Source of the DNA: Escherichia phage JS10
Sequence record: EU863409
DNA length: 64,000 nt
Reading direction: 5' to 3' (one strand)
Below the pieces are notes generated by a model. It saw only the letters and a list, made by a program, of their open reading frames with translations. It did not search any database and was not told the origin of the DNA. Each line of letters begins with the position of its first letter. Position 1 is the stretch's first letter. A program made the translations under genes and the position numbers. Positions 16,453 to 24,563 of this stretch are shown piece after piece.

Positions 16453-18576
16453 CTACATTTTGAATTTATTTGGTAAAGAAGAGATGTCCAAAGATGCAGC
16501 AAGGATTTCCATAGCCTCATTACTTTCTGAAACAGATTCTGAAACTAGGAATTCTTTAAACCCATTCATCAATTTAACTTCACCGGTTTCCATCAGATGG
16601 TCGCCATCGTAAACGGACTCACTGAGTTCTGAAGGAGATGTCACTGTAGCTTCCATAAGGTATTTGTGAGATACTCTATCATTCATAGCAAAAGCCGCTA
16701 CTTTATCAACCTTCAACAATAATCCGCGCGGAAGGATAATTTCTGCTTCTTCAGAATATTCCGTAAGGTCACCAGGAGCGATAACTTTAACTGCTTCAGC
16801 ACCTCGAATAACCATACCGATTTCAGCAATCCTGTCTGCAGGGCCTTCAGGTGCAATTGGATTACCGAACTCATCTTCTTCCCATTCTACCTCTTCATCA
16901 TCAACTTCACCTACGTCAGATGAACTACCACTAGCCAATTTAAACAACTCATCGGCGGAGGATAAAGAACCTTCATCACCAACAAAAACTGCTTGGTTGT
17001 CGAGGGCCATATAATTTTTACCAAATTCGCCAAAGATGTTAGGCTTTAATGAAGCGGACACAAAGTTCTTAAAGTAAAATGTTTTGTTATCAATATTATG
17101 GCGTAGAATTTTGTATGGTAAATCCTGGCCACGATACAAAATAGTACCCTTAGGAAGTTTAATACCCTTAGTAAATGCTGAGTCTAAATCCTTAATCAAT
17201 TTAATAGCTGTTGTATTGTTTTCGGATTCAGGTTTACCTAAAAGGAATAAGTTCATAGGAGCATATTCAGCTGCACAATATTCGATAATGGCATTACTTT
17301 CGTCTTTTGTCAAGCCCTTAGGTTTAATGAGCTCGCCTGAATAAGCATACGCATCGCCAATAGAATCGTTAATTAGTTTATAAACGGCTTCCATAGCGAA
17401 AGCAATTCGGGATGCTTTCTCTGAAGGAGACCCCTGAAAACGGGCACTCAGGTTATTAACAATTCTCTTAATAATATCCAGACTATTGGTAGTATTGATT
17501 TGAGAAAGGCCGCTTAAAAGTCTATCGACTTCCGTATTAAAAAACGCCATATTATTAGAGTAAATTTCAAACCCTTGTTTATCTCTATTAGCATAATTTA
17601 GTTTAAATTTACTATCAGTCATTAAAGCGTGCGTGAGAGCAATGGTGTATCTAAAGTTGGCAAGGTCCTCACTCTTAGATTTAAACTGAGAGGCCTGTCG
17701 CATTTTAGTAATAGCACCTTTTTTAAAGTTCTGGCTAATCTGCTCAATACCTTCGTTCTCAGGGCCTTCGGCCGAGTGAACAGGTACAGAAACTTCAAAC
17801 TCGTTATAAACCTGCAATTCTTTAGGTGATAAAGTTTCAGGTTCGGCAGTAGAATACTGCGCTGCTGCAGCCATACGACGGGAAATTTTAGTACGAGAGA
17901 TAACGGCCTTATCGGTACGTTTCTCTTCAACCTGTGCAATAGATGCCGCTACGGCTTCGACCTTACTTACGGCCTGTCCGGTTTTCTTAGAAACATAAAC
18001 TTCACCGACTTTAGACTCAACCTTGGTATAAAGGTCCGCATCAATTTCAGGCATACCCTTGATATCTTCAATATTAGTGCCACGACGTGCTAAAAGAACG
18101 TATGTATGTTTACCACTAAACTGGAACATATCATCAACAACTTTAAACTTACCACCAGTACGAGCCATAGCCAAACGAGCTAATACACGCTGAACAGTAG
18201 GACCCTTACCTTTCATTTTCTTGGTAGGGAAACGGAACAAAACTGCATCCATTTTAAGTTTACTTACTTGTTCGTATATCGTATCGAAAATAGTATTCAA
18301 TGCACCAAGAGGGTCAGAACCAAGGCCACCTTTGAGTTCAGCTGGAGCACCCTTGCTCGACAAACTCATTAAAATAACATGAACGTATTTGTCGCCAGGC
18401 TTAACCATTTTAATAGCGTCTCCTTGAGACGCATAAGATACCATACGAGCAACAAGATTATCATTACCCGGTGCTTTAATAGAGAAAATCTGTGGGATAC
18501 CGGAGCCCGGCTTAAGATTTGTTACTGGATAGTTTTTAGCGGAATCACTATCAAAAACTTCGTTTAAATTTTCCAT
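16453..18576 (-). CDS. alt: Alt-type ADP-ribosyltransferase (packaged head protein), paralog 1
   Basis: 707 aa; C-terminal domain has the R (YRGQ), S-x-S (FVSASL) and E-x-E (EAEIILPRG) ADP-ribosyltransferase motifs; position between 54 and 30 as T4 alt. Confidence 0.85.
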   Translation of the reverse strand: MENLNEVFDSDSAKNYPVTNLKPGSGIPQIFSIKAPGNDNLVARMVSYASQGDAIKMVKPGDKYVHVILMSLSSKGAPAELKGGLGSDPLGALNTIFDTIYEQVSKLKMDAVLFRFPTKKMKGKGPTVQRVLARLAMARTGGKFKVVDDMFQFSGKHTYVLLARRGTNIEDIKGMPEIDADLYTKVESKVGEVYVSKKTGQAVSKVEAVAASIAQVEEKRTDKAVISRTKISRRMAAAAQYSTAEPETLSPKELQVYNEFEVSVPVHSAEGPENEGIEQISQNFKKGAITKMRQASQFKSKSEDLANFRYTIALTHALMTDSKFKLNYANRDKQGFEIYSNNMAFFNTEVDRLLSGLSQINTTNSLDIIKRIVNNLSARFQGSPSEKASRIAFAMEAVYKLINDSIGDAYAYSGELIKPKGLTKDESNAIIEYCAAEYAPMNLFLLGKPESENNTTAIKLIKDLDSAFTKGIKLPKGTILYRGQDLPYKILRHNIDNKTFYFKNFVSASLKPNIFGEFGKNYMALDNQAVFVGDEGSLSSADELFKLASGSSSDVGEVDDEEVEWEEDEFGNPIAPEGPADRIAEIGMVIRGAEAVKVIAPGDLTEYSEEAEIILPRGLLLKVDKVAAFAMNDRVSHKYLMEATVTSPSELSESVYDGDHLMETGEVKLMNGFKEFLVSESVSESNEAMEILAASLDISSLPNKFKM

Positions 18577-18579
18577 TAT

Positions 18580-20664
18580 TTACCCTTGGATGAATTTTTC
18601 TGGTATGTCATAGAGGTCTATGCATGAAGCCAAAAGAGGCAGTACGTCAAACCGTGTAGATTTAACAAATGAATCAAAAGATACAGGGCTTTCGGAAGTA
18701 TCGAAGTCATCTTGGTATACGACCAACTCACCGGTTTCCATTAGTACGTCACCATCATACACTACAGATTCTTGAAGCTCATCCGTCGTCATAACTTCGG
18801 CTTGAACGAGTTTTGTATTACTAGATGTCGTTCCGTCATTATTAGAGGCATCAGTTATTTTATTAACTTTGACCATCAATCCGCGTGGTAGAATAACTTC
18901 AGCTTCTGTTGCTATTCCAAGACTTCCTGGATATACCGCATTAACTTTATGGGCTCCATCAATTGCCCATCCTATTTGAACTTTAACGTAATCAGGGTTT
19001 TCTTTATACGCTCTTATTTCATTAGGATTAATGGTTATTCCTTCTTCATTTTTATCGACTGTCAATTCGTTGCGAACTTCCGGTTCTAAAAGACCAACCC
19101 CGGCATGTGTAACACCAAAACGTCCAAAAATGATAGGAGTCAGTGAAGTAGATACAAAATTTCTAAAATAAAATACCTTATTTTTAACTAGTGCTTCGTA
19201 TATAGGAGCGGTCATACTCTGTGCACGATAAACTGTAATGCCTTCTGGTATACGGTCACCATTTTCAAAAGCTGAATCAAGATTATTAACAGCAGATTCA
19301 ATAGACCTTTCATTCATTACATCATAGTTCTGAGGATTATAACGTCCTAAAAGAAGATTATTGATGTCGGTATAACCTGAGCCGCAGTATTCTCTGATGC
19401 CGCGCTTTTGTGATGGGGTGTATTTAGAACCATCACGAGCGATAGTAATATCGACCATAATACCACCACCTACACCGGCAAAACTATAAATGCGTTTTTT
19501 AATGAACTTGGTCTTGGCCGCTTTCCACTTGGACTCGGTTAATTCATTCCAGACGTCGTCAGGTTGACCTTTACGAGTTTTGTTATGCATAGCCAGCCAT
19601 TCGCCTTTATATTCTTCAAAAACCGTATTAATAACAGAGGCATATTTTTCTAGAGCTTTAACAGATGTCAAAGGTTCGTTTTTGATGGCTGTAAGAATTT
19701 TATCTTTAATTTTCTCTTGGATTTCACCTATACCGTGAAGAGGAAACATTTTATATTCGTAATGCAATTCTTCAGCAGTGCCTTCAGCTACTATATTAGC
19801 AACTTTATTTTTAGCCGCAGGAGAATTGTTATTAGTGACCATTTCCTGTGCCTCAGGGATTAATGGAGCTGTTGCAGGTTTATTAAAATCTGCTGCAGTA
19901 GCTTCATATTTCTTAAACAGTTCACTTTCATTACGATAAGATTCTAAAGACTGACTTGCTGCAATAGCGCGACGAGAAATCTTAGTCTTGGTTATAACCA
20001 TTTTATCAGTGCGACGTTCTTCAACTTTAGCAATACTGCCGGCAATAGCAGTTTCTTTAGTAACCTGCACACCTTCTTTTTTAGAAATATAAACTTCACC
20101 AACATCAGAATCTACCTTAGTATACAATTCGGCATTAATTCCTGGCATACCTTTGATATCTTCAATATCAGCTTGTTTACGAACTACTAGGATATAAGTA
20201 TGTTTACCGGTAAATTGGTACATAGCCGGAACTACTTTGAAGCGTCCACCAGTTTTTTGAGTTACCAGACGTTGGATAATCCGTTGGACAATAGGCCCTT
20301 GCCCTTTCATTTTCTTGGTTGGAAAACGGAACATCACAGCATCCATACGAAGCTTTTTAACTTGTTCGAATACTACGTCGAAAATGGTATTAATAGCATC
20401 AATAGGAGTAGGGCCTAAGCCGCCTTTAAGTTCGGCTGGAGAACCTTTAGCCGAAAGGCTCATAAGGATAACGTGGGCGTATTTATCACCTAATTTAACC
20501 TGTTTAATAGCATCGCCTTCAGAGGCATAAGATACCATACGAGCAACTAATTGGGATTCGACATCACCAATCTTCCAAATCTGGGGTACTTTAAGTTTCG
20601 GGTTTAAGTTTACAGTAGGCAGCGTGCCTTCAGACTCAAACACTTCATTTAATTGTTCGGTCAT
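18580..20664 (-). CDS. Alt-type ADP-ribosyltransferase, paralog 2
   Basis: 694 aa; N-terminal ~230 aa close to paralog 1; C-terminal YRAQ / FVSTSL / EAEVILPRG motifs intact. Confidence 0.85.
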   Translation of the reverse strand: MTEQLNEVFESEGTLPTVNLNPKLKVPQIWKIGDVESQLVARMVSYASEGDAIKQVKLGDKYAHVILMSLSAKGSPAELKGGLGPTPIDAINTIFDVVFEQVKKLRMDAVMFRFPTKKMKGQGPIVQRIIQRLVTQKTGGRFKVVPAMYQFTGKHTYILVVRKQADIEDIKGMPGINAELYTKVDSDVGEVYISKKEGVQVTKETAIAGSIAKVEERRTDKMVITKTKISRRAIAASQSLESYRNESELFKKYEATAADFNKPATAPLIPEAQEMVTNNNSPAAKNKVANIVAEGTAEELHYEYKMFPLHGIGEIQEKIKDKILTAIKNEPLTSVKALEKYASVINTVFEEYKGEWLAMHNKTRKGQPDDVWNELTESKWKAAKTKFIKKRIYSFAGVGGGIMVDITIARDGSKYTPSQKRGIREYCGSGYTDINNLLLGRYNPQNYDVMNERSIESAVNNLDSAFENGDRIPEGITVYRAQSMTAPIYEALVKNKVFYFRNFVSTSLTPIIFGRFGVTHAGVGLLEPEVRNELTVDKNEEGITINPNEIRAYKENPDYVKVQIGWAIDGAHKVNAVYPGSLGIATEAEVILPRGLMVKVNKITDASNNDGTTSSNTKLVQAEVMTTDELQESVVYDGDVLMETGELVVYQDDFDTSESPVSFDSFVKSTRFDVLPLLASCIDLYDIPEKFIQG

Positions 20665-20720: not shown

Positions 20721-20927
20721 TGGTAGCAACGTACGATATACTTCGAATGTCGGGCCTTTTTCATACCGGTCAAAAGTATCTTTGAAATCAGCAAAAGCTA
20801 TTTCATCCTCAAACTCGAGGATGATTTGAGAGGCCGCGGTGGTGTTTGTATTTGTTACAACAATTGTTTCTAAATAAGCTTTCATATTATAGTCCAGTTT
20901 GAGACCAATCACCAAATACATCTTCAA
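20715..20927 (-). CDS. hypothetical small protein
   Basis: 70 aa ORF between ligase and alt; 5' end overlaps the ligase 3' end by about 40 nt. Confidence 0.35.
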   Translation of the reverse strand: MKMYLVIGLKLDYNMKAYLETIVVTNTNTTAASQIILEFEDEIAFADFKDTFDRYEKGPTFEVYRTLLPL

Positions 20928-22410
20928 ATGTATCAGCTTCTGTTTTATCGAAACGCCAACCTTTAATAATTGGAAGGAAAATACCTACAGTATCAGTACG
21001 TCCTTTAGAATGAACCCAACCATTACATTCACAGTCAGCAATACGTCCAATCAACTTACCTTCACGGGCTTGTTTCATAAGAAGTTCACGGTCTAAATCA
21101 GGACGGTCTTCTAATGGAATCAATACCTTTTTACCTGATTTATCTTTCTTATGGGTAGTATCTTTAAAACCTGAACCACAGTCAGATGTAATTCGACGAC
21201 ACCGCGATACCAGCTCGACACCACCAAGTTTGTTTGGGTCTTTAGAGTGTTCATAATAACCTACCACTTCTAAAGCGATATCGATTACTTCTTTGAACTT
21301 GATAAGATTCTTAGAACGGCGGTTTTCCCAGTAGGAGTCCATGTTCTTAAGGATAATACCTTCCAGGCCTTGGTCGACATATTTCTTATAAACAACTTTA
21401 GCTTCGTCAAGATTATTAACCCATTGGTTTTCGATAGCTTCAACACGCGTTGTACCATGCAATACGACATTATGAGCAACCATAAGTTCTAAGGCTGCAA
21501 AGCGTACATCATACTTATCGCCTTTAATTTTACCTTCGGAATATACGACATCCAATGGGACATAATCCCACGCCTGTAATACCATACCTGCTGCTTCGGT
21601 TGGAGTAATAGTTCCTTGAAGAGCCTTGTTAGCCAACCCGTTTGAAGTAGAACGATCGGCTACGGTTTGGAATTCCTTGGCTTTACTTAATTCAGGAAGT
21701 TCCTCATCAAACATACTAAACAAATCATTAGACGCTTTAGGTTCTACTTTAGGAGTGTGGTAAACTAATTCACCGTCAATCATAACACCATTAGGATGGC
21801 GCTGTCGAGCTTCTTCAGTCATGGCCATTAATTCAGCCGCCAAAAGATTAAGCCCTTGGTATTCATTACCACCGCGAGTAAGGAATGTTACGCCATCGTT
21901 ACGAACTTCAGCAAAACAACGAGCACCGTCAGCTTTTAATTGGGCGAACGCAGGCCATTTAATATTTTTCTTAATCAAATCTTCATCATAAGAACTAGCC
22001 AACATTTGAGGTTGTTCAGGGATTAAACCTTTCCAAACCTTGTTAGCAATAGAAATCGATGCACCACATTCAAGGTCACGCATCATTACGCGACGTAATA
22101 CCTCAGCGTCAGGACCCTTAGCATCGGCAATAATTTGGGCAAGCTCTTCAATAGCAGCATTACCCGTAATCTTACGGGTGGCTAATGTGAACTCGGCGAA
22201 ATCAAGAAGGTCTTCAAGAGTAATCATACCAAAGGATTGAGACGTAAATCCAGGTTCAGGCCACTTTTTAATACCGTAGTTTAAACGACGGGTATAAGCC
22301 ATACGATATACACGTTTCAGAAGCTCGTTATCCTTTTCACGAGCAATAATAGCTTCTTTAGATTTAGTAGAATCAATAGAAGCAATTTCGTTTAAAATAT
22401 CTAAAATCAT
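20887..22410 (-). CDS. 30: ATP-dependent DNA ligase gp30
   Basis: 507 aa; MILDILNEIASIDSTK..., active-site region FAQLKADGARCFAEV matches T4 DNA ligase. Confidence 0.9.
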   Translation of the reverse strand: MILDILNEIASIDSTKSKEAIIAREKDNELLKRVYRMAYTRRLNYGIKKWPEPGFTSQSFGMITLEDLLDFAEFTLATRKITGNAAIEELAQIIADAKGPDAEVLRRVMMRDLECGASISIANKVWKGLIPEQPQMLASSYDEDLIKKNIKWPAFAQLKADGARCFAEVRNDGVTFLTRGGNEYQGLNLLAAELMAMTEEARQRHPNGVMIDGELVYHTPKVEPKASNDLFSMFDEELPELSKAKEFQTVADRSTSNGLANKALQGTITPTEAAGMVLQAWDYVPLDVVYSEGKIKGDKYDVRFAALELMVAHNVVLHGTTRVEAIENQWVNNLDEAKVVYKKYVDQGLEGIILKNMDSYWENRRSKNLIKFKEVIDIALEVVGYYEHSKDPNKLGGVELVSRCRRITSDCGSGFKDTTHKKDKSGKKVLIPLEDRPDLDRELLMKQAREGKLIGRIADCECNGWVHSKGRTDTVGIFLPIIKGWRFDKTEADTFEDVFGDWSQTGL

Positions 22411-22670
22411 TTTACCGTCCTTACAGTTTGTGTACTTCTATTATAAGCTACTTCATCTAAAAGCTCATTTAAAGTTTTGTGATACGATATAATACGCTTA
22501 TCTTTAATATCATATTCAGTAACATACATAAATCCACGCCGAACACATTGGATAAAGATATCTTCATCTTTGGCTTGGAAATATACAGGATTCAATCGAA
22601 GGAATTGTCTAAAGTTTCCATAATCATGGGATTTAGGGATTCCATCAGTAATAGTATGAACAACAAACAT
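22407..22670 (-). CDS. hypothetical protein (30.1-position)
   Basis: Start taken at internal Met (MFVVHTITDG) abutting the upstream stop; track ORF is 22407-22703. Confidence 0.4.
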   Translation of the reverse strand: MFVVHTITDGIPKSHDYGNFRQFLRLNPVYFQAKDEDIFIQCVRRGFMYVTEYDIKDKRIISYHKTLNELLDEVAYNRSTQTVRTVK

Positions 22671-22671
22671 A

Positions 22672-23310
22672 TTAACCTCGTGCAATCCATTCAACGGCTG
22701 CATTATTACGAAGGGATTCGATTGCTGCGATATCGTCCCATGAATTAACCTTTACGGCTAAATTAGGTTTAAAGTCGCGTTCACCACGGGCTAACCAATA
22801 AACTTGGATATCCATGAGAATATTAGATGCAGCATCACAGTGGTGAGCCAAATCGTCAACATAAAACTTAATGCGTTTGCCGTACGTATTTTTAGCTCTT
22901 ATGAACAGGTCTTCTTTTGATTCTGAATGACCACACATCAGAATCTCCTTGAATGCGCCAGGGAACAAAGCATTCAAATTGAATTGTCTATTCAGCAGAG
23001 CATCAATTGAGTCGCCTAGCGCAGTCACGGCCACAAAATCGAAGTCTTTTTTGAGCTTGTTGATGTGTTTTAATGCGTCCATGTAAGGGGACAGATAACG
23101 AATAAAATCCGACTGATTATATTTCTCAATTAAACGTGCGCCTAATTCGTCGTCACAATTAAACAGTTCGCCTGGAGATAAGAAACGTTCGTCCTGAATC
23201 ATATTCAAAATATGTTCTAAAGGCAAATTATATTTCTGTGCGAAATAAGGCAAGCCGGACTGCCAACTTAAACATACTCCATCGATATCTGTTAAGATAA
23301 CTGGTTTCAT
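22672..23310 (-). CDS. HAD-superfamily hydrolase-like protein
   Basis: 212 aa; N-terminal ILTDIDGV (HAD motif I) and later FYVDD. Confidence 0.55.
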   Translation of the reverse strand: MKPVILTDIDGVCLSWQSGLPYFAQKYNLPLEHILNMIQDERFLSPGELFNCDDELGARLIEKYNQSDFIRYLSPYMDALKHINKLKKDFDFVAVTALGDSIDALLNRQFNLNALFPGAFKEILMCGHSESKEDLFIRAKNTYGKRIKFYVDDLAHHCDAASNILMDIQVYWLARGERDFKPNLAVKVNSWDDIAAIESLRNNAAVEWIARG

Positions 23311-23774
23311 AATAAATCTCTCAATTTGTTTAGGATGTCGATAAACTCTTTTTCAGTTAGTATTGTATCACATTCTTTGAGGTGGCTTGCCATTGAATGC
23401 TTTAAAACCTTACCTTTAGTGGCTTGTAAAGCTTCTCGGAATCCTTTGTTCTGGAGCGCTGCTTCAAAATACGCACTTTCGTAAAGCTCTTTCCACGCTT
23501 CGGAATATCTTGAAAACGGGGTTCCAAGCCAGAACAACGTGCCACGGTCCTGAGCTCTAGCATAAGCTCGTCCAGCTTTTTGCGCGTCTAACCCGGACAT
23601 CCTAAATATACGTCTTTGTTGTTCAACATTTTTCACCTTACACCCTTGGAGGAATCCTTCGAGTCCACCAAATTGGATACCATCCATAACGAAAGGCCAT
23701 TTAGCAAAGTTACTTAATGCACATGATGGCCACGGAAAGTTACTTCTAATTTCTAACTCAGACATCTTTGACAC
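23307..23774 (-). CDS. NADAR / YbiA-like domain protein
   Basis: 155 aa; LSNFAKWPFVMDGIQFGGLEGFLQGCK parallels the YbiA-family SNFxxWP...DG...E..FQ core. Confidence 0.55.
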   Translation of the reverse strand: MSKMSELEIRSNFPWPSCALSNFAKWPFVMDGIQFGGLEGFLQGCKVKNVEQQRRIFRMSGLDAQKAGRAYARAQDRGTLFWLGTPFSRYSEAWKELYESAYFEAALQNKGFREALQATKGKVLKHSMASHLKECDTILTEKEFIDILNKLRDLL

Positions 23775-23973
23775 TTATAATTTCAACATCGGCCCAATAA
23801 CCATAACCCGGCAGTCGGTCTTCAATGGATAAACCACCGTCATGTTTAGGCATTTTAATTGTCATGATATAAGGTTCTAAATGGTCCGCCGTATGAGGAG
23901 AAACATCAGTCACACGATAAGTCACTTCAACCATTTCCGTACCTAACAATTTCTGAATCAGTTTCTTAACCAT
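23758..23973 (-). CDS. hypothetical protein
   Basis: 71 aa ORF in the early gene array. Confidence 0.4.
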   Translation of the reverse strand: MVKKLIQKLLGTEMVEVTYRVTDVSPHTADHLEPYIMTIKMPKHDGGLSIEDRLPGYGYWADVEIISVKDV

Positions 23974-24540: not shown

Positions 24541-24563
24541 AATGGGACTCCGAAGAGTCCCAT
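24541..24563 (-). terminator. Rho-independent terminator (- strand)
   Basis: gggactc-cgaa-gagtccc hairpin followed by a T-run on the - strand. Confidence 0.55.

What the first reader, a model, noticed from the sequence alone, without database searches (positions are those of the whole stretch)
22672..23774. NADAR/YbiA-like gene adjacent to a HAD-like hydrolase gene in the early region next to DNA ligase
The 23307-23774 product has the YbiA/NADAR-type core (SNFAKWPFVMDG...EGFLQGCK), a family linked to hydrolysis of ADP-ribose adducts and related N-glycosides. The downstream gene (22672-23310) has HAD phosphatase motif I (DIDGV) and a DD motif. An ADP-ribose-processing enzyme in a phage that also encodes two ADP-ribosyltransferases 3 kb away could reverse host ADP-ribosylation-based toxins or tune the phage's own modification chemistry.
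Basis: partly seen in the sequence, partly recalled or inferred. Interest (0 to 1): 0.6.

Follow-up and report, generated by a model that had tools for sequence, protein, structure and literature searches.

The report
Known phage anti-DarT enzyme plus phosphatase
The two genes are the T4-type genes 30.3 and 30.2: the first is the already published enzyme AdfN, which strips ADP-ribose off phage DNA to beat the bacterial DarTG1 defence. The second is an uncharacterised nucleotidase-like phosphatase that travels with the DNA ligase gene and is not needed for that counter-defence.

Summary
The window is a JS98-like T4-type phage (genus Dhakavirus).

**Gene 30.3 (23307-23765, minus strand)**
- It matches Pfam Phage_30_3 at E = 2e-65 and is 85% identical to T4 gp30.3.
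- The gene here is full length and keeps E36, K43 and the phage-clade H123.
- Its predicted structure matches only the three solved NADAR structures.

Both are already in the literature (2012 bioinformatics, 2024-2025 experiments).

**Gene 30.2 (22672-23310, minus strand)**
- It is a HAD phosphatase with all four catalytic motifs.
- It is closest to the NT5C 5'(3')-deoxyribonucleotidase branch.
- Its substrate is unknown.

**No support for a NADAR-HAD module**
- gp30.2 sits beside DNA ligase in 74 of 79 loci, but has gp30.3 within 6 kb in only 37.
- Only 22 of 80 gp30.3 loci have gp30.2 nearby.
- In a published T4 transposon screen, 30.2 insertions are neutral under DarTG1, while 30.3 insertions are lost.

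Verdict: ordinary and already known. The only open point is what gp30.2 does.

The parts
23307..23765 (-). Gene 30.3 / adfN orthologue: 152-aa NADAR-family DNA ADP-ribosylglycohydrolase. Probable ATG start at 23765; the mechanical ORF extends to a GTG at 23774.
   Evidence: Pfam PF08010 at E = 2.3e-65. 85% identical over all 152 aa to T4 gp30.3. AF2 model pLDDT 94.9. Foldseek top three hits are the only NADAR structures in the PDB. The T4 orthologue was characterised in PMC11825919.
23637..23660 (-). Catalytic core EGFLQGCK. The E36 codon is 23660-23658 and the K43 codon is 23639-23637.
   Evidence: Read from the sequence. E36, Q40 and K43 are invariant in 34 family members. T4 E36A and K43A lose most rescue activity.
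23397..23399 (-). H123 codon: the histidine in the last beta-strand that replaces the YbiA-type Glu / DarG1-type Asp and marks the phage gp30.3 clade.
   Evidence: Invariant in alignment A2/A3. The clade signature is described in PMC11125620 and PMC11543638.
23307..23354 (-). C-terminal helix (residues about 138-151), intact here. It is the part lost in the inactive RB69 allele.
   Evidence: AF2 secondary structure gives helix H138-151. Full-length alignment to T4. The truncation phenotype is in PMC11825919.
22672..23310 (-). Gene 30.2: 212-aa HAD-superfamily phosphatase with a C1 helical cap, NT5C (5'(3')-deoxyribonucleotidase)-like. Its start overlaps the 30.3 stop (ATGA).
23281..23289 (-). 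HAD motif I, D8-I-D10 (nucleophile and acid/base aspartates).
   Evidence: Read from the sequence. D8, D10 and G11 are invariant in 38 family members. D8 and D10 are still invariant in 60 sequences that include distant relatives.
22852..22857 (-). HAD motif IV, D152-D153 (Mg2+ ligands). Motif II T96 and motif III K132 lie between motifs I and IV.
   Evidence: D152, D153 and K132 are invariant, and T96 is conserved in at least 90% of sequences.
22407..22670 (-). Gene 30.1 (DUF3045), context. Lies between 30.2 and the ligase gene.
   Evidence: Pfam PF11243 at E = 3.6e-19. JS98 annotation gives 87 aa.
20887..22410 (-). Gene 30, ATP-dependent DNA ligase. It is the conserved neighbour of gene 30.2.
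   Evidence: JS98 and T4 annotation. Ligase lies beside gp30.2 in 74 of 79 loci.
23758..23973 (-). Gene 30.4, context. Its stop overlaps the 30.3 start.
   Evidence: phrog_2042, JS98 annotation, sequence.
16453..20664 (-). Two tandem Alt-type ADP-ribosyltransferase genes (16453-18576 and 18580-20664), context only.
   Evidence: ORFs. JS98 annotation shows two alt genes. phmmer finds two alt hits in Dhakavirus loci.

Best explanation
The region is the 30.3-30.2 segment of the tightly packed early gene run 30.6 > 30.5 > 30.4 > 30.3 > 30.2 > 30.1 > 30 (ligase) of a JS98-like T4-type phage.

**Gene 30.3.** This is the orthologue of T4 adfN. It is a free-standing NADAR hydrolase that cuts the N-glycosidic bond between guanine and ADP-ribose in DNA modified by the host toxin DarT1. 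That lets phage DNA replicate in DarTG1-carrying hosts. The activity is inferred here from 85% identity, intact catalytic residues and the fold. It was shown experimentally only for T4.

**Gene 30.2.** This is a separate, catalytically competent HAD phosphatase of the NT5C (5'(3')-deoxyribonucleotidase)-like branch. It most likely dephosphorylates a (deoxy)nucleoside monophosphate or a similar small phospho-metabolite. That substrate assignment is inferred from fold, cap type and family bridging and has not been tested.

**Relation between the two.** Their adjacency reflects local gene order in T-even-type genera, not a two-enzyme pathway. The conserved partner of gp30.2 is the ligase gene, and gp30.2 is dispensable for DarTG1 counter-defence in T4.
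For: **Identity of the phage and genes**
- 98.7-99% DNA identity to JS98 and MN04, with genes annotated 30.1-30.6.

**gp30.3**
- PF08010 at E = 2.3e-65.
- 85% identical to T4 gp30.3 with no gaps.
- E36, Q40, K43 and H123 are invariant in the family.
- AF2 pLDDT is 94.9. The only meaningful PDB fold hits are YbiA 2b3w (E = 3.8e-5, TM 0.67), PnNADAR 8bau and G. lovleyi NADAR 8bat.
- 8 of 34 family members hit Pfam NADAR, best E = 1.5e-7.

**Published function of the T4 orthologue**
- Genetics, E36A/K43A mutants and in vitro de-ADP-ribosylation (PMC11825919).
- Guanosine-ADPr hydrolysis in vitro (PMC11125620).
- Transposon insertions in 30.3 are lost under DarTG1, log2FC -7.25.

**gp30.2**
- D8, D10, K132, D152 and D153 are invariant, and T96 is conserved in at least 90% of sequences.
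- AF2 pLDDT is 94.4, a Rossmannoid core plus helical cap.
- 31 of 59 distant relatives hit Pfam NT5C. The L161 homologue hits NT5C at E = 1.5e-4 over its full length.

**Linkage**
- 74 of 79 gp30.2 loci have ligase adjacent, and only 37 have gp30.3 within 6 kb.
- 22 of 80 gp30.3 loci have gp30.2 within 6 kb.
- T4 30.2 insertions are neutral under DarTG1, log2FC -0.12, p = 0.61.
Against: - No activity was measured for this phage's proteins. 15% of gp30.3 residues differ from T4.
- T4 AdfN does not rescue uninfected E. coli from DarT1 and works fully only during T-even infection, so an unknown phage factor or specificity determinant exists.
- The transposon data are from T4, not a Dhakavirus. 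A redundant factor could mask a contribution of 30.2.
Confidence: 0.82

Rival explanations
1. gp30.3 and gp30.2 form a two-step ADP-ribose-processing module. The NADAR releases ADP-ribose or a phosphorylated derivative, and the HAD phosphatase then dephosphorylates it. Alternatively, gp30.2 is the unknown T-even factor that AdfN needs for full activity.
For: - The two genes overlap by ATGA and lie in one tightly packed run.
- Where both are within 6 kb, gp30.2 is always downstream on the same strand.
- PMC11825919 reports that AdfN needs an unidentified T-even factor.
Against: - T4 30.2 transposon insertions are not depleted under DarTG1 (log2FC -0.12, p = 0.61), while 30.3 insertions are lost (log2FC -7.25).
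- Only 22 of 80 gp30.3 loci have gp30.2 within 6 kb. In several 167-174 kb T4-type genomes the two genes lie about 55-60 kb apart.
- NADAR hydrolysis of guanine-ADPr needs no phosphatase step (PMC11543638).
Confidence: 0.05
2. gp30.3 mainly reverses or tunes ADP-ribosylation made by the phage's own transferases (the two Alt paralogues, ModA, ModB) rather than by host toxins.
For: - Two Alt genes lie 2-6 kb away in the same early region.
- Iyer et al. note that T4-like NADAR genes are expressed early along with ARTs (PMC9503650).
Against: - The demonstrated NADAR substrates discussed here are guanine-ADPr in DNA, not arginine-ADPr on proteins.
- T4 30.3 is non-essential without DarTG1 (27 of 28 TA sites hit) and becomes essential only with DarTG1.
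- gp30.3 is often far from alt in other genera.
Confidence: 0.05
3. gp30.2 is a DNA-end 3'-phosphatase (end-healing enzyme) that prepares nicks for the adjacent DNA ligase, like the HAD phosphatase domain of T4 polynucleotide kinase.
For: - Ligase is adjacent in 74 of 79 loci. This includes two distant contigs (L161, L163) where the order is reversed but the linkage is kept.
- One distant relative hits Pfam HAD_PNKP.
Against: - gp30.2 has a roughly 70-residue helical C1 cap over the active site. By general knowledge of HAD enzymes, which was not tested here, that is typical of small-molecule phosphatases. PNKP-type phosphatases are capless.
- 31 of 59 distant relatives hit NT5C, against 1 for HAD_PNKP.
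- Conserved adjacency may simply be conserved core gene order in T4-type phages.
Confidence: 0.1
4. gp30.3 is a YbiA-type housekeeping N-glycosidase acting on riboflavin-pathway intermediates.
For: The best single-sequence matches are to YbiA and TIGR02464.
Against: - The scores are far below threshold (14.3 versus 73.7 bits).
- The YbiA-defining Glu in the last strand is replaced by His123.
- The T4 orthologue has a demonstrated DNA de-ADP-ribosylation role.
Confidence: 0.02

Closest known systems
T4 gp30.3 = AdfN (anti-DarT factor NADAR), Johannesman et al. 2025, PMC11825919
   Same: - 85% identical over the same 152 residues.
- Same E36, K43, H123 and C-terminal helix.
- Same genomic slot between 30.4 and 30.2, upstream of the ligase gene.
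   Different: - 23 substitutions.
- The host phage is a Dhakavirus rather than a Tequatrovirus.
- No experimental data exist for this allele.
DarG1 (the DarT1-associated NADAR antitoxin; structure 8bat)
   Same: NADAR fold and catalytic Glu/Lys, and the same reaction of guanine de-ADP-ribosylation.
   Different: - No N-terminal extension and no adjacent darT.
- His instead of Asp in the last strand.
- The T4 orthologue cannot replace DarG1 in uninfected cells.
E. coli YbiA (2b3w) / Pfam NADAR PF08719
   Same: Best structural match (TM 0.67), with the shared SNFA...PF...E..Q..K core.
   Different: - Sequence similarity is only marginal for this protein alone (E = 0.77 as a single sequence, 0.012 as a profile).
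- The YbiA-type Glu is replaced by His.
- The biological role is different.
NT5C family: cytosolic and mitochondrial 5'(3')-deoxyribonucleotidases (cdN 2jao/6g2n, mdN 4mum) and S. epidermidis 3bwv
   Same: - HAD core with DxDGV motif I and an aromatic residue eight positions after the nucleophile. W16 here aligns with the Phe of cdN in the HMMER alignment.
- Helical C1 cap.
- Family bridging through distant relatives.
   Different: - About 14-18% identity.
- The Pfam NT5C score for this protein is below threshold.
- The substrate is untested.
- The family is phage-restricted, with variable C-terminal tails.
T4 gp30.2 (uncharacterised)
   Same: 75% identical over residues 1-194, in the same position next to 30.3 and 30.1.
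   Different: T4 gp30.2 is 278 aa, 66 aa longer, with a C-terminal tail beyond the aligned 191 residues that is absent here.

Membership tests
gp30.3 / AdfN clade of the NADAR superfamily | Match to Pfam Phage_30_3 (PF08010) above the gathering score | tested here: met
   219 bits against a cutoff of 36, E = 2.3e-65.
gp30.3 / AdfN clade of the NADAR superfamily | NADAR (YbiA) fold | tested here: met
   AF2 pLDDT 94.9. Foldseek top three hits are 2b3w, 8bau and 8bat, and nothing else scores below E = 1.
gp30.3 / AdfN clade of the NADAR superfamily | Conserved catalytic Glu and Lys (T4 E36 and K43) | tested here: met
   E36 and K43 are present at identical positions and invariant in 34 homologues.
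gp30.3 / AdfN clade of the NADAR superfamily | Histidine in the last beta-strand, in place of the YbiA Glu or DarG1 Asp | tested here: met
   H123 is invariant. The signature is described in the papers read.
gp30.3 / AdfN clade of the NADAR superfamily | Intact C-terminal helix (lost in the inactive RB69 allele) | tested here: met
   Full-length 152 aa, with helix 138-151 in the model.
gp30.3 / AdfN clade of the NADAR superfamily | Hydrolysis of guanine-ADP-ribose in DNA, and protection of the phage from DarTG1 | not testable with these tools
   Shown only for the T4 orthologue.
DarTG1 toxin-antitoxin system (DarG1 antitoxin) | NADAR gene in an operon with darT1, and a DarG1-type N-terminal extension | tested here: not met
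   The neighbours are 30.4 and 30.2. The protein starts directly with the NADAR core. PADLOC gives no hit. It works like DarG1 but is an orphan.
HAD (haloacid dehalogenase-like) phosphatase superfamily | Four catalytic motifs: I DxD, II T/S, III K, IV DD | tested here: met
   D8, D10, T96, K132, D152 and D153 are conserved across 38 homologues. D8, D10, K132 and D153 stay invariant when distant relatives are added.
HAD (haloacid dehalogenase-like) phosphatase superfamily | Rossmannoid core fold with a cap insertion after motif I | tested here: met
NT5C 5'(3')-deoxyribonucleotidase family (PF06941) | Match to the Pfam NT5C model above the gathering score | tested here: inconclusive
   - This protein scores 12.9 bits against a cutoff of 24.8.
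- 7 of 38 close family members hit weakly.
- 31 of 59 distant relatives hit, best E = 4.2e-10.
NT5C 5'(3')-deoxyribonucleotidase family (PF06941) | Phosphatase activity on 5'- or 3'-dNMPs | not testable with these tools
   No biochemical data were found for any gp30.2 homologue.

The most novel reading that the evidence does not exclude
gp30.2 may define an uncharacterised, phage-specific branch of NT5C-like phosphatases that is functionally tied to the T4-type DNA ligase. The two are adjacent in 74 of 79 loci, including distant contigs with reversed gene order. Possible roles are a nucleotide-pool editing enzyme, a clearing enzyme for ligase or repair by-products, or an end-processing enzyme that supports nick sealing. 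This would be separate from the known AdfN function next door.
Probability: 0.2. Interest if true: 0.4.

Novelty: already known. Interest (0 to 1): 0.15.

Why it matters
The main element is an orthologue of a published counter-defence enzyme, so its presence adds no new biology. It does predict that this Dhakavirus, unlike RB69 or relatives with deleted alleles, should resist DarTG1.

The analysis also argues against one candidate for the unidentified T-even factor that AdfN is reported to need. gp30.2 is not linked to gp30.3 across phages, and it is dispensable under DarTG1 in T4.

What remains open is modest. gp30.2 is a widely conserved, ligase-linked, catalytically intact NT5C-like phosphatase of T4-type phages that still has no known substrate or phenotype.

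Tried and rejected
- **Single-sequence tests of gp30.3 against NADAR were too weak to decide.** NCBIfam TIGR02464 gave E = 0.037, far below its cutoff. phmmer against the PDB gave YbiA at E = 0.77, and the family profile gave E = 0.012. PADLOC gave nothing. The question was settled by structure and by family-level bridging.
- It was rebuilt as A3.
- **Literature searches found nothing functional on gp30.2.** This covers searches for gp30.2 and for phage deoxyribonucleotidases.
- **The hypothesis that gp30.2 is AdfN's missing cofactor was considered and rejected**, on neighbourhood statistics and the HIDEN-SEQ DarTG1 sheet.
- **One supplementary look-up missed its target.** Part 17 of the HIDEN-SEQ table was read for another condition but did not contain the 30.2 row, and this was not pursued.
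- **A possible NADAR-like ORF in the distant contig L161 was inconclusive.** It had no Pfam hit and an hhalign probability of 41%.
Full report
**What the window is.** The 2-kb stretch around the finding is 99.0% identical to Escherichia phage MN04 and 98.7% identical to phage JS98, genus Dhakavirus, a T4-type myovirus. In JS98 the genes under the finding are annotated 30.1, 30.2, 30.3, 30.4, 30.5 and 30.6. DNA ligase (gene 30), alt.1 and two Alt-type ADP-ribosyltransferase genes lie downstream. T4 has the same order.

In the window all these genes are on the minus strand and tightly packed. The stop of 30.4 overlaps the ATG of 30.3. The stop of 30.3 overlaps the ATG of 30.2 (ATGA). Gene 30.1 starts right after the stop of 30.2, and the stop of 30.1 overlaps the ligase start.

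**Check of the observation.** Both ORFs and the quoted motifs are present.
- The 23307-23774 ORF matches Pfam Phage_30_3 (PF08010) at E = 2.3e-65, and phrog_652.
- The 22672-23310 ORF matches phrog_420 at E = 2.4e-70, with only a sub-threshold hit to Pfam NT5C.
- The next ORF is DUF3045, that is gp30.1.
- The orthologues in JS98 and T4 are 152 aa, so the real start of 30.3 is most likely the ATG at 23765, not the GTG at 23774.
- The two Alt paralogues lie at 16453-18576 and 18580-20664.

**Gene 30.3 is the known enzyme AdfN.** The product is 85% identical to T4 gp30.3, without gaps, over all 152 residues.

The published record on T4 gp30.3 and the phage NADAR clade is as follows.
- T4 gene 30.3 was renamed adfN (anti-DarT factor NADAR). 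It is necessary for T4 to resist DarTG1 and sufficient to rescue RB69. It has a NADAR fold, needs E36 and K43 and its C-terminal helix for full activity, and removes ADP-ribose from DarT1-modified DNA in vitro (PMC11825919).
- An independent study showed that the phage gp30.3 NADAR hydrolyses guanosine-ADPr but not thymidine-ADPr (PMC11125620).
- The NADAR superfamily paper states that phage NADARs carry a histidine where YbiA has Glu and DarT1-associated NADARs have Asp. It cites the 2012 bioinformatic classification for this (PMC11543638).
- A T4 transposon screen confirms that 30.3 is dispensable on E. coli K-12 but essential with DarTG1 (10.1101/2025.11.20.689424).

For the window's protein, each defining feature was tested.
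- E36, Q40, K43 and H123 are present, and they are invariant in 34 homologues down to 36% identity.
- The protein is full length, with a predicted C-terminal helix at residues 138-151.
- The AlphaFold2 model has pLDDT 94.9. Its only meaningful matches in the PDB are the three NADAR structures: YbiA 2b3w (E = 3.8e-5, TM 0.67), Phytophthora NADAR with ADP-ribose 8bau, and Geobacter lovleyi NADAR 8bat.
- 8 of the 34 family members also hit Pfam NADAR PF08719, best E = 1.5e-7.
- Tests with this one sequence alone were marginal, and PADLOC found nothing.

The NADAR call stands, and so does the suggested role against DarT-type toxins. Neither is new.

**Gene 30.2 is a HAD phosphatase of the nucleotidase-like kind.**
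- The product is 75% identical to T4 gp30.2 over residues 1-194. T4 gp30.2 is 278 aa, 66 aa longer, and its C-terminal tail beyond the aligned region is absent here.
- Homologues occur in 1436 phage records. They carry no precomputed Pfam domain, apart from one 302-aa entry carrying DUF3045 (the gp30.1 domain), and only occasional source names such as "5'(3')-deoxyribonucleotidase" or "HAD-superfamily hydrolase".
- In 38 homologues the residues D8, D10, G11, W16, K132, D152 and D153 are invariant, and T96 is conserved in at least 90%. These are the four HAD motifs.
- The AlphaFold2 model (pLDDT 94.4) has a Rossmannoid core with a helical insertion at residues 16-86, which is a C1-type cap.
- Foldseek places mouse cdN at rank 2. 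The only PDB sequence hit with a consistent alignment is also cdN. It lines up DxDGV, the aromatic residue eight positions after the nucleophile (W16 here, Phe in cdN), SGL, and the cap segment YNxSxF with YESPGFF.
- A profile search of 1.84 billion representatives found 1150 relatives. Of 59 distant ones (20-31% identity), 31 hit Pfam NT5C (best E = 4.2e-10), against 16 for the generic Hydrolase model and 13 for HAD_2.
- The distant homologue in contig L161 hits NT5C over its full length at E = 1.5e-4.

I conclude that gp30.2 is a catalytically intact, divergent NT5C-like HAD phosphatase. A (deoxy)nucleoside monophosphate substrate is the leading inference, not a demonstrated fact. I found no paper on its function.

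It also bears on an open question, because AdfN of T4 does not protect uninfected cells or unrelated phages, and the authors propose an unknown T-even factor. Two independent lines argue against gp30.2 being that factor or a pathway partner.

First, gene neighbourhoods.
- Among 80 IMG/VR loci that encode a gp30.3 relative, only 22 have a gp30.2 relative within 6 kb.
- Among 79 loci that encode a gp30.2 relative, 74 have DNA ligase beside it. This includes two distant contigs where ligase lies upstream instead of downstream. Only 37 have gp30.3 within 6 kb.
- Several complete 167-174 kb T4-type genomes appear in both sets with the two genes about 55-60 kb apart.
- gp30.3 relatives also occur in much larger contigs (250-424 kb) and in an Agrobacterium phage locus that has no gp30.2 nearby.

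Second, published genetics. These data come from the HIDEN-SEQ T4 library, sheet "resampling_Control_vs_DarTG1" (sheet identity checked; values).

| T4 gene | log2 fold change under DarTG1 | p-value |
|---|---|---|
| 30.3 | -7.25 | adjusted p = 0 |
| 30.4 (directly upstream, overlapping) | -1.79 | adjusted p = 0.014 |
| 30.2 | -0.12 | p = 0.61 |

The 30.4 effect is probably polar. Gene 30.2 is also non-essential on K-12, with insertions at 72 of 72 TA sites. The adjacency in this window is therefore best read as local gene order in T-even-type genera.

**Most likely mechanism.**
- Shown for the T4 orthologue and inferred here: DarT1 ADP-ribosylates guanines in phage DNA and blocks replication. 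The early-expressed gp30.3/AdfN hydrolyses the guanine-ribose N-glycosidic bond using the E36/K43/H123 centre. This releases ADP-ribose and restores the base.
- Inferred only: gp30.2 uses D8 as nucleophile and D10 as acid/base, with Mg2+ held by D152 and D153, to dephosphorylate a small nucleotide-like substrate enclosed by its cap. Its conserved position next to ligase hints at a role in DNA or nucleotide metabolism, but this could equally be conserved synteny.

**Comparison and novelty.** gp30.3 is a member of the gp30.3/AdfN clade of NADAR, and every sequence or structure feature tested was met. It works like DarG1 but is not a DarG1: it has no darT partner, no N-terminal extension, and His instead of Asp. 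gp30.2 is a member of the HAD superfamily. Membership in NT5C is inconclusive for this sequence alone but is supported at family level. The finding as stated is already known.

The residual novelty is the uncharacterised, ligase-linked gp30.2 family. I put about 0.2 probability on that linkage reflecting a real functional tie, with moderate interest if true.

**Verdict.** Interest is low (0.15), because the key element is published and the remainder is an ordinary conserved hypothetical enzyme.

Noticed in passing
window 22672-23310 with 20887-22410; loci L085-L163: The gp30.2 phosphatase gene is adjacent to the DNA ligase gene in 74 of 79 viral loci. This includes two distant contigs (L161, L163, 36-37% identity) where ligase is upstream instead of downstream. 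gp30.1, gp30.3 and gp30.4-30.6 are far less constant.
   Followed up: partly
L087:5500-6004 (IMGVR_UViG_2974741249); protein clusters P0124, P0126, P0132, P0133, P0134: Some close relatives carry damaged adfN alleles. L087 has an in-frame deletion that joins residue 8 to residue 44, removing the SNFA...EGFLQGCK catalytic core. Other clusters are N- or C-terminally truncated calls of 89-126 aa. The window's allele is intact.
   Followed up: partly
window 23402-23563, minus strand, inside gene 30.3: An out-of-frame internal ORF of 53 aa corresponds to T4's annotated 30.3'. It is only 57% identical to the T4 version and lacks its first 22 residues, while the main frame is 85% identical. That does not suggest independent protein-level conservation.
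   Followed up: partly
window 23758-23973 (gene 30.4): In the published T4 transposon data, insertions in 30.4 are moderately depleted under DarTG1 (log2FC -1.79, adjusted p = 0.014). Gene 30.4 overlaps the 30.3 start, so this may be a polar effect, but a role of its own is not excluded.
   Followed up: no
window 22672-23310 versus L002:6475-7311: T4 gp30.2 is 278 aa, 66 aa longer than the 212-aa protein here, and its low-complexity C-terminal tail is absent in this Dhakavirus. Across the family, C-terminal tails vary widely in length and sequence.
   Followed up: no
L161:2037-2498: In a distant T4-like contig, an ORF with a NADAR-like motif (LSNFAYSPF...SIEGYW) lies about 1.4 kb upstream of ligase and the NT5C-like gp30.2 homologue. 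It has no Pfam hit and only 41% hhalign probability against the gp30.3 profile, so its identity is unresolved.
   Followed up: partly
window 24542-24563, minus strand: A strong terminator-like hairpin (9-bp stem, GC-rich, followed by a T run) sits just upstream of gene 30.6. It may mark the start of the 30.6-to-ligase transcription unit.
   Followed up: no
window 16453-18576 and 18580-20664: There are two full-length tandem Alt-type ADP-ribosyltransferase genes, as in JS98. T4 has one alt plus the short remnants alt.-1 and alt.-2.
   Followed up: no
window 22407-22703: The mechanical ORF for gene 30.1 starts at 22703, inside 30.2. The annotated JS98 orthologue (87 aa) corresponds to a start at 22670, directly after the 30.2 stop.
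   Followed up: no
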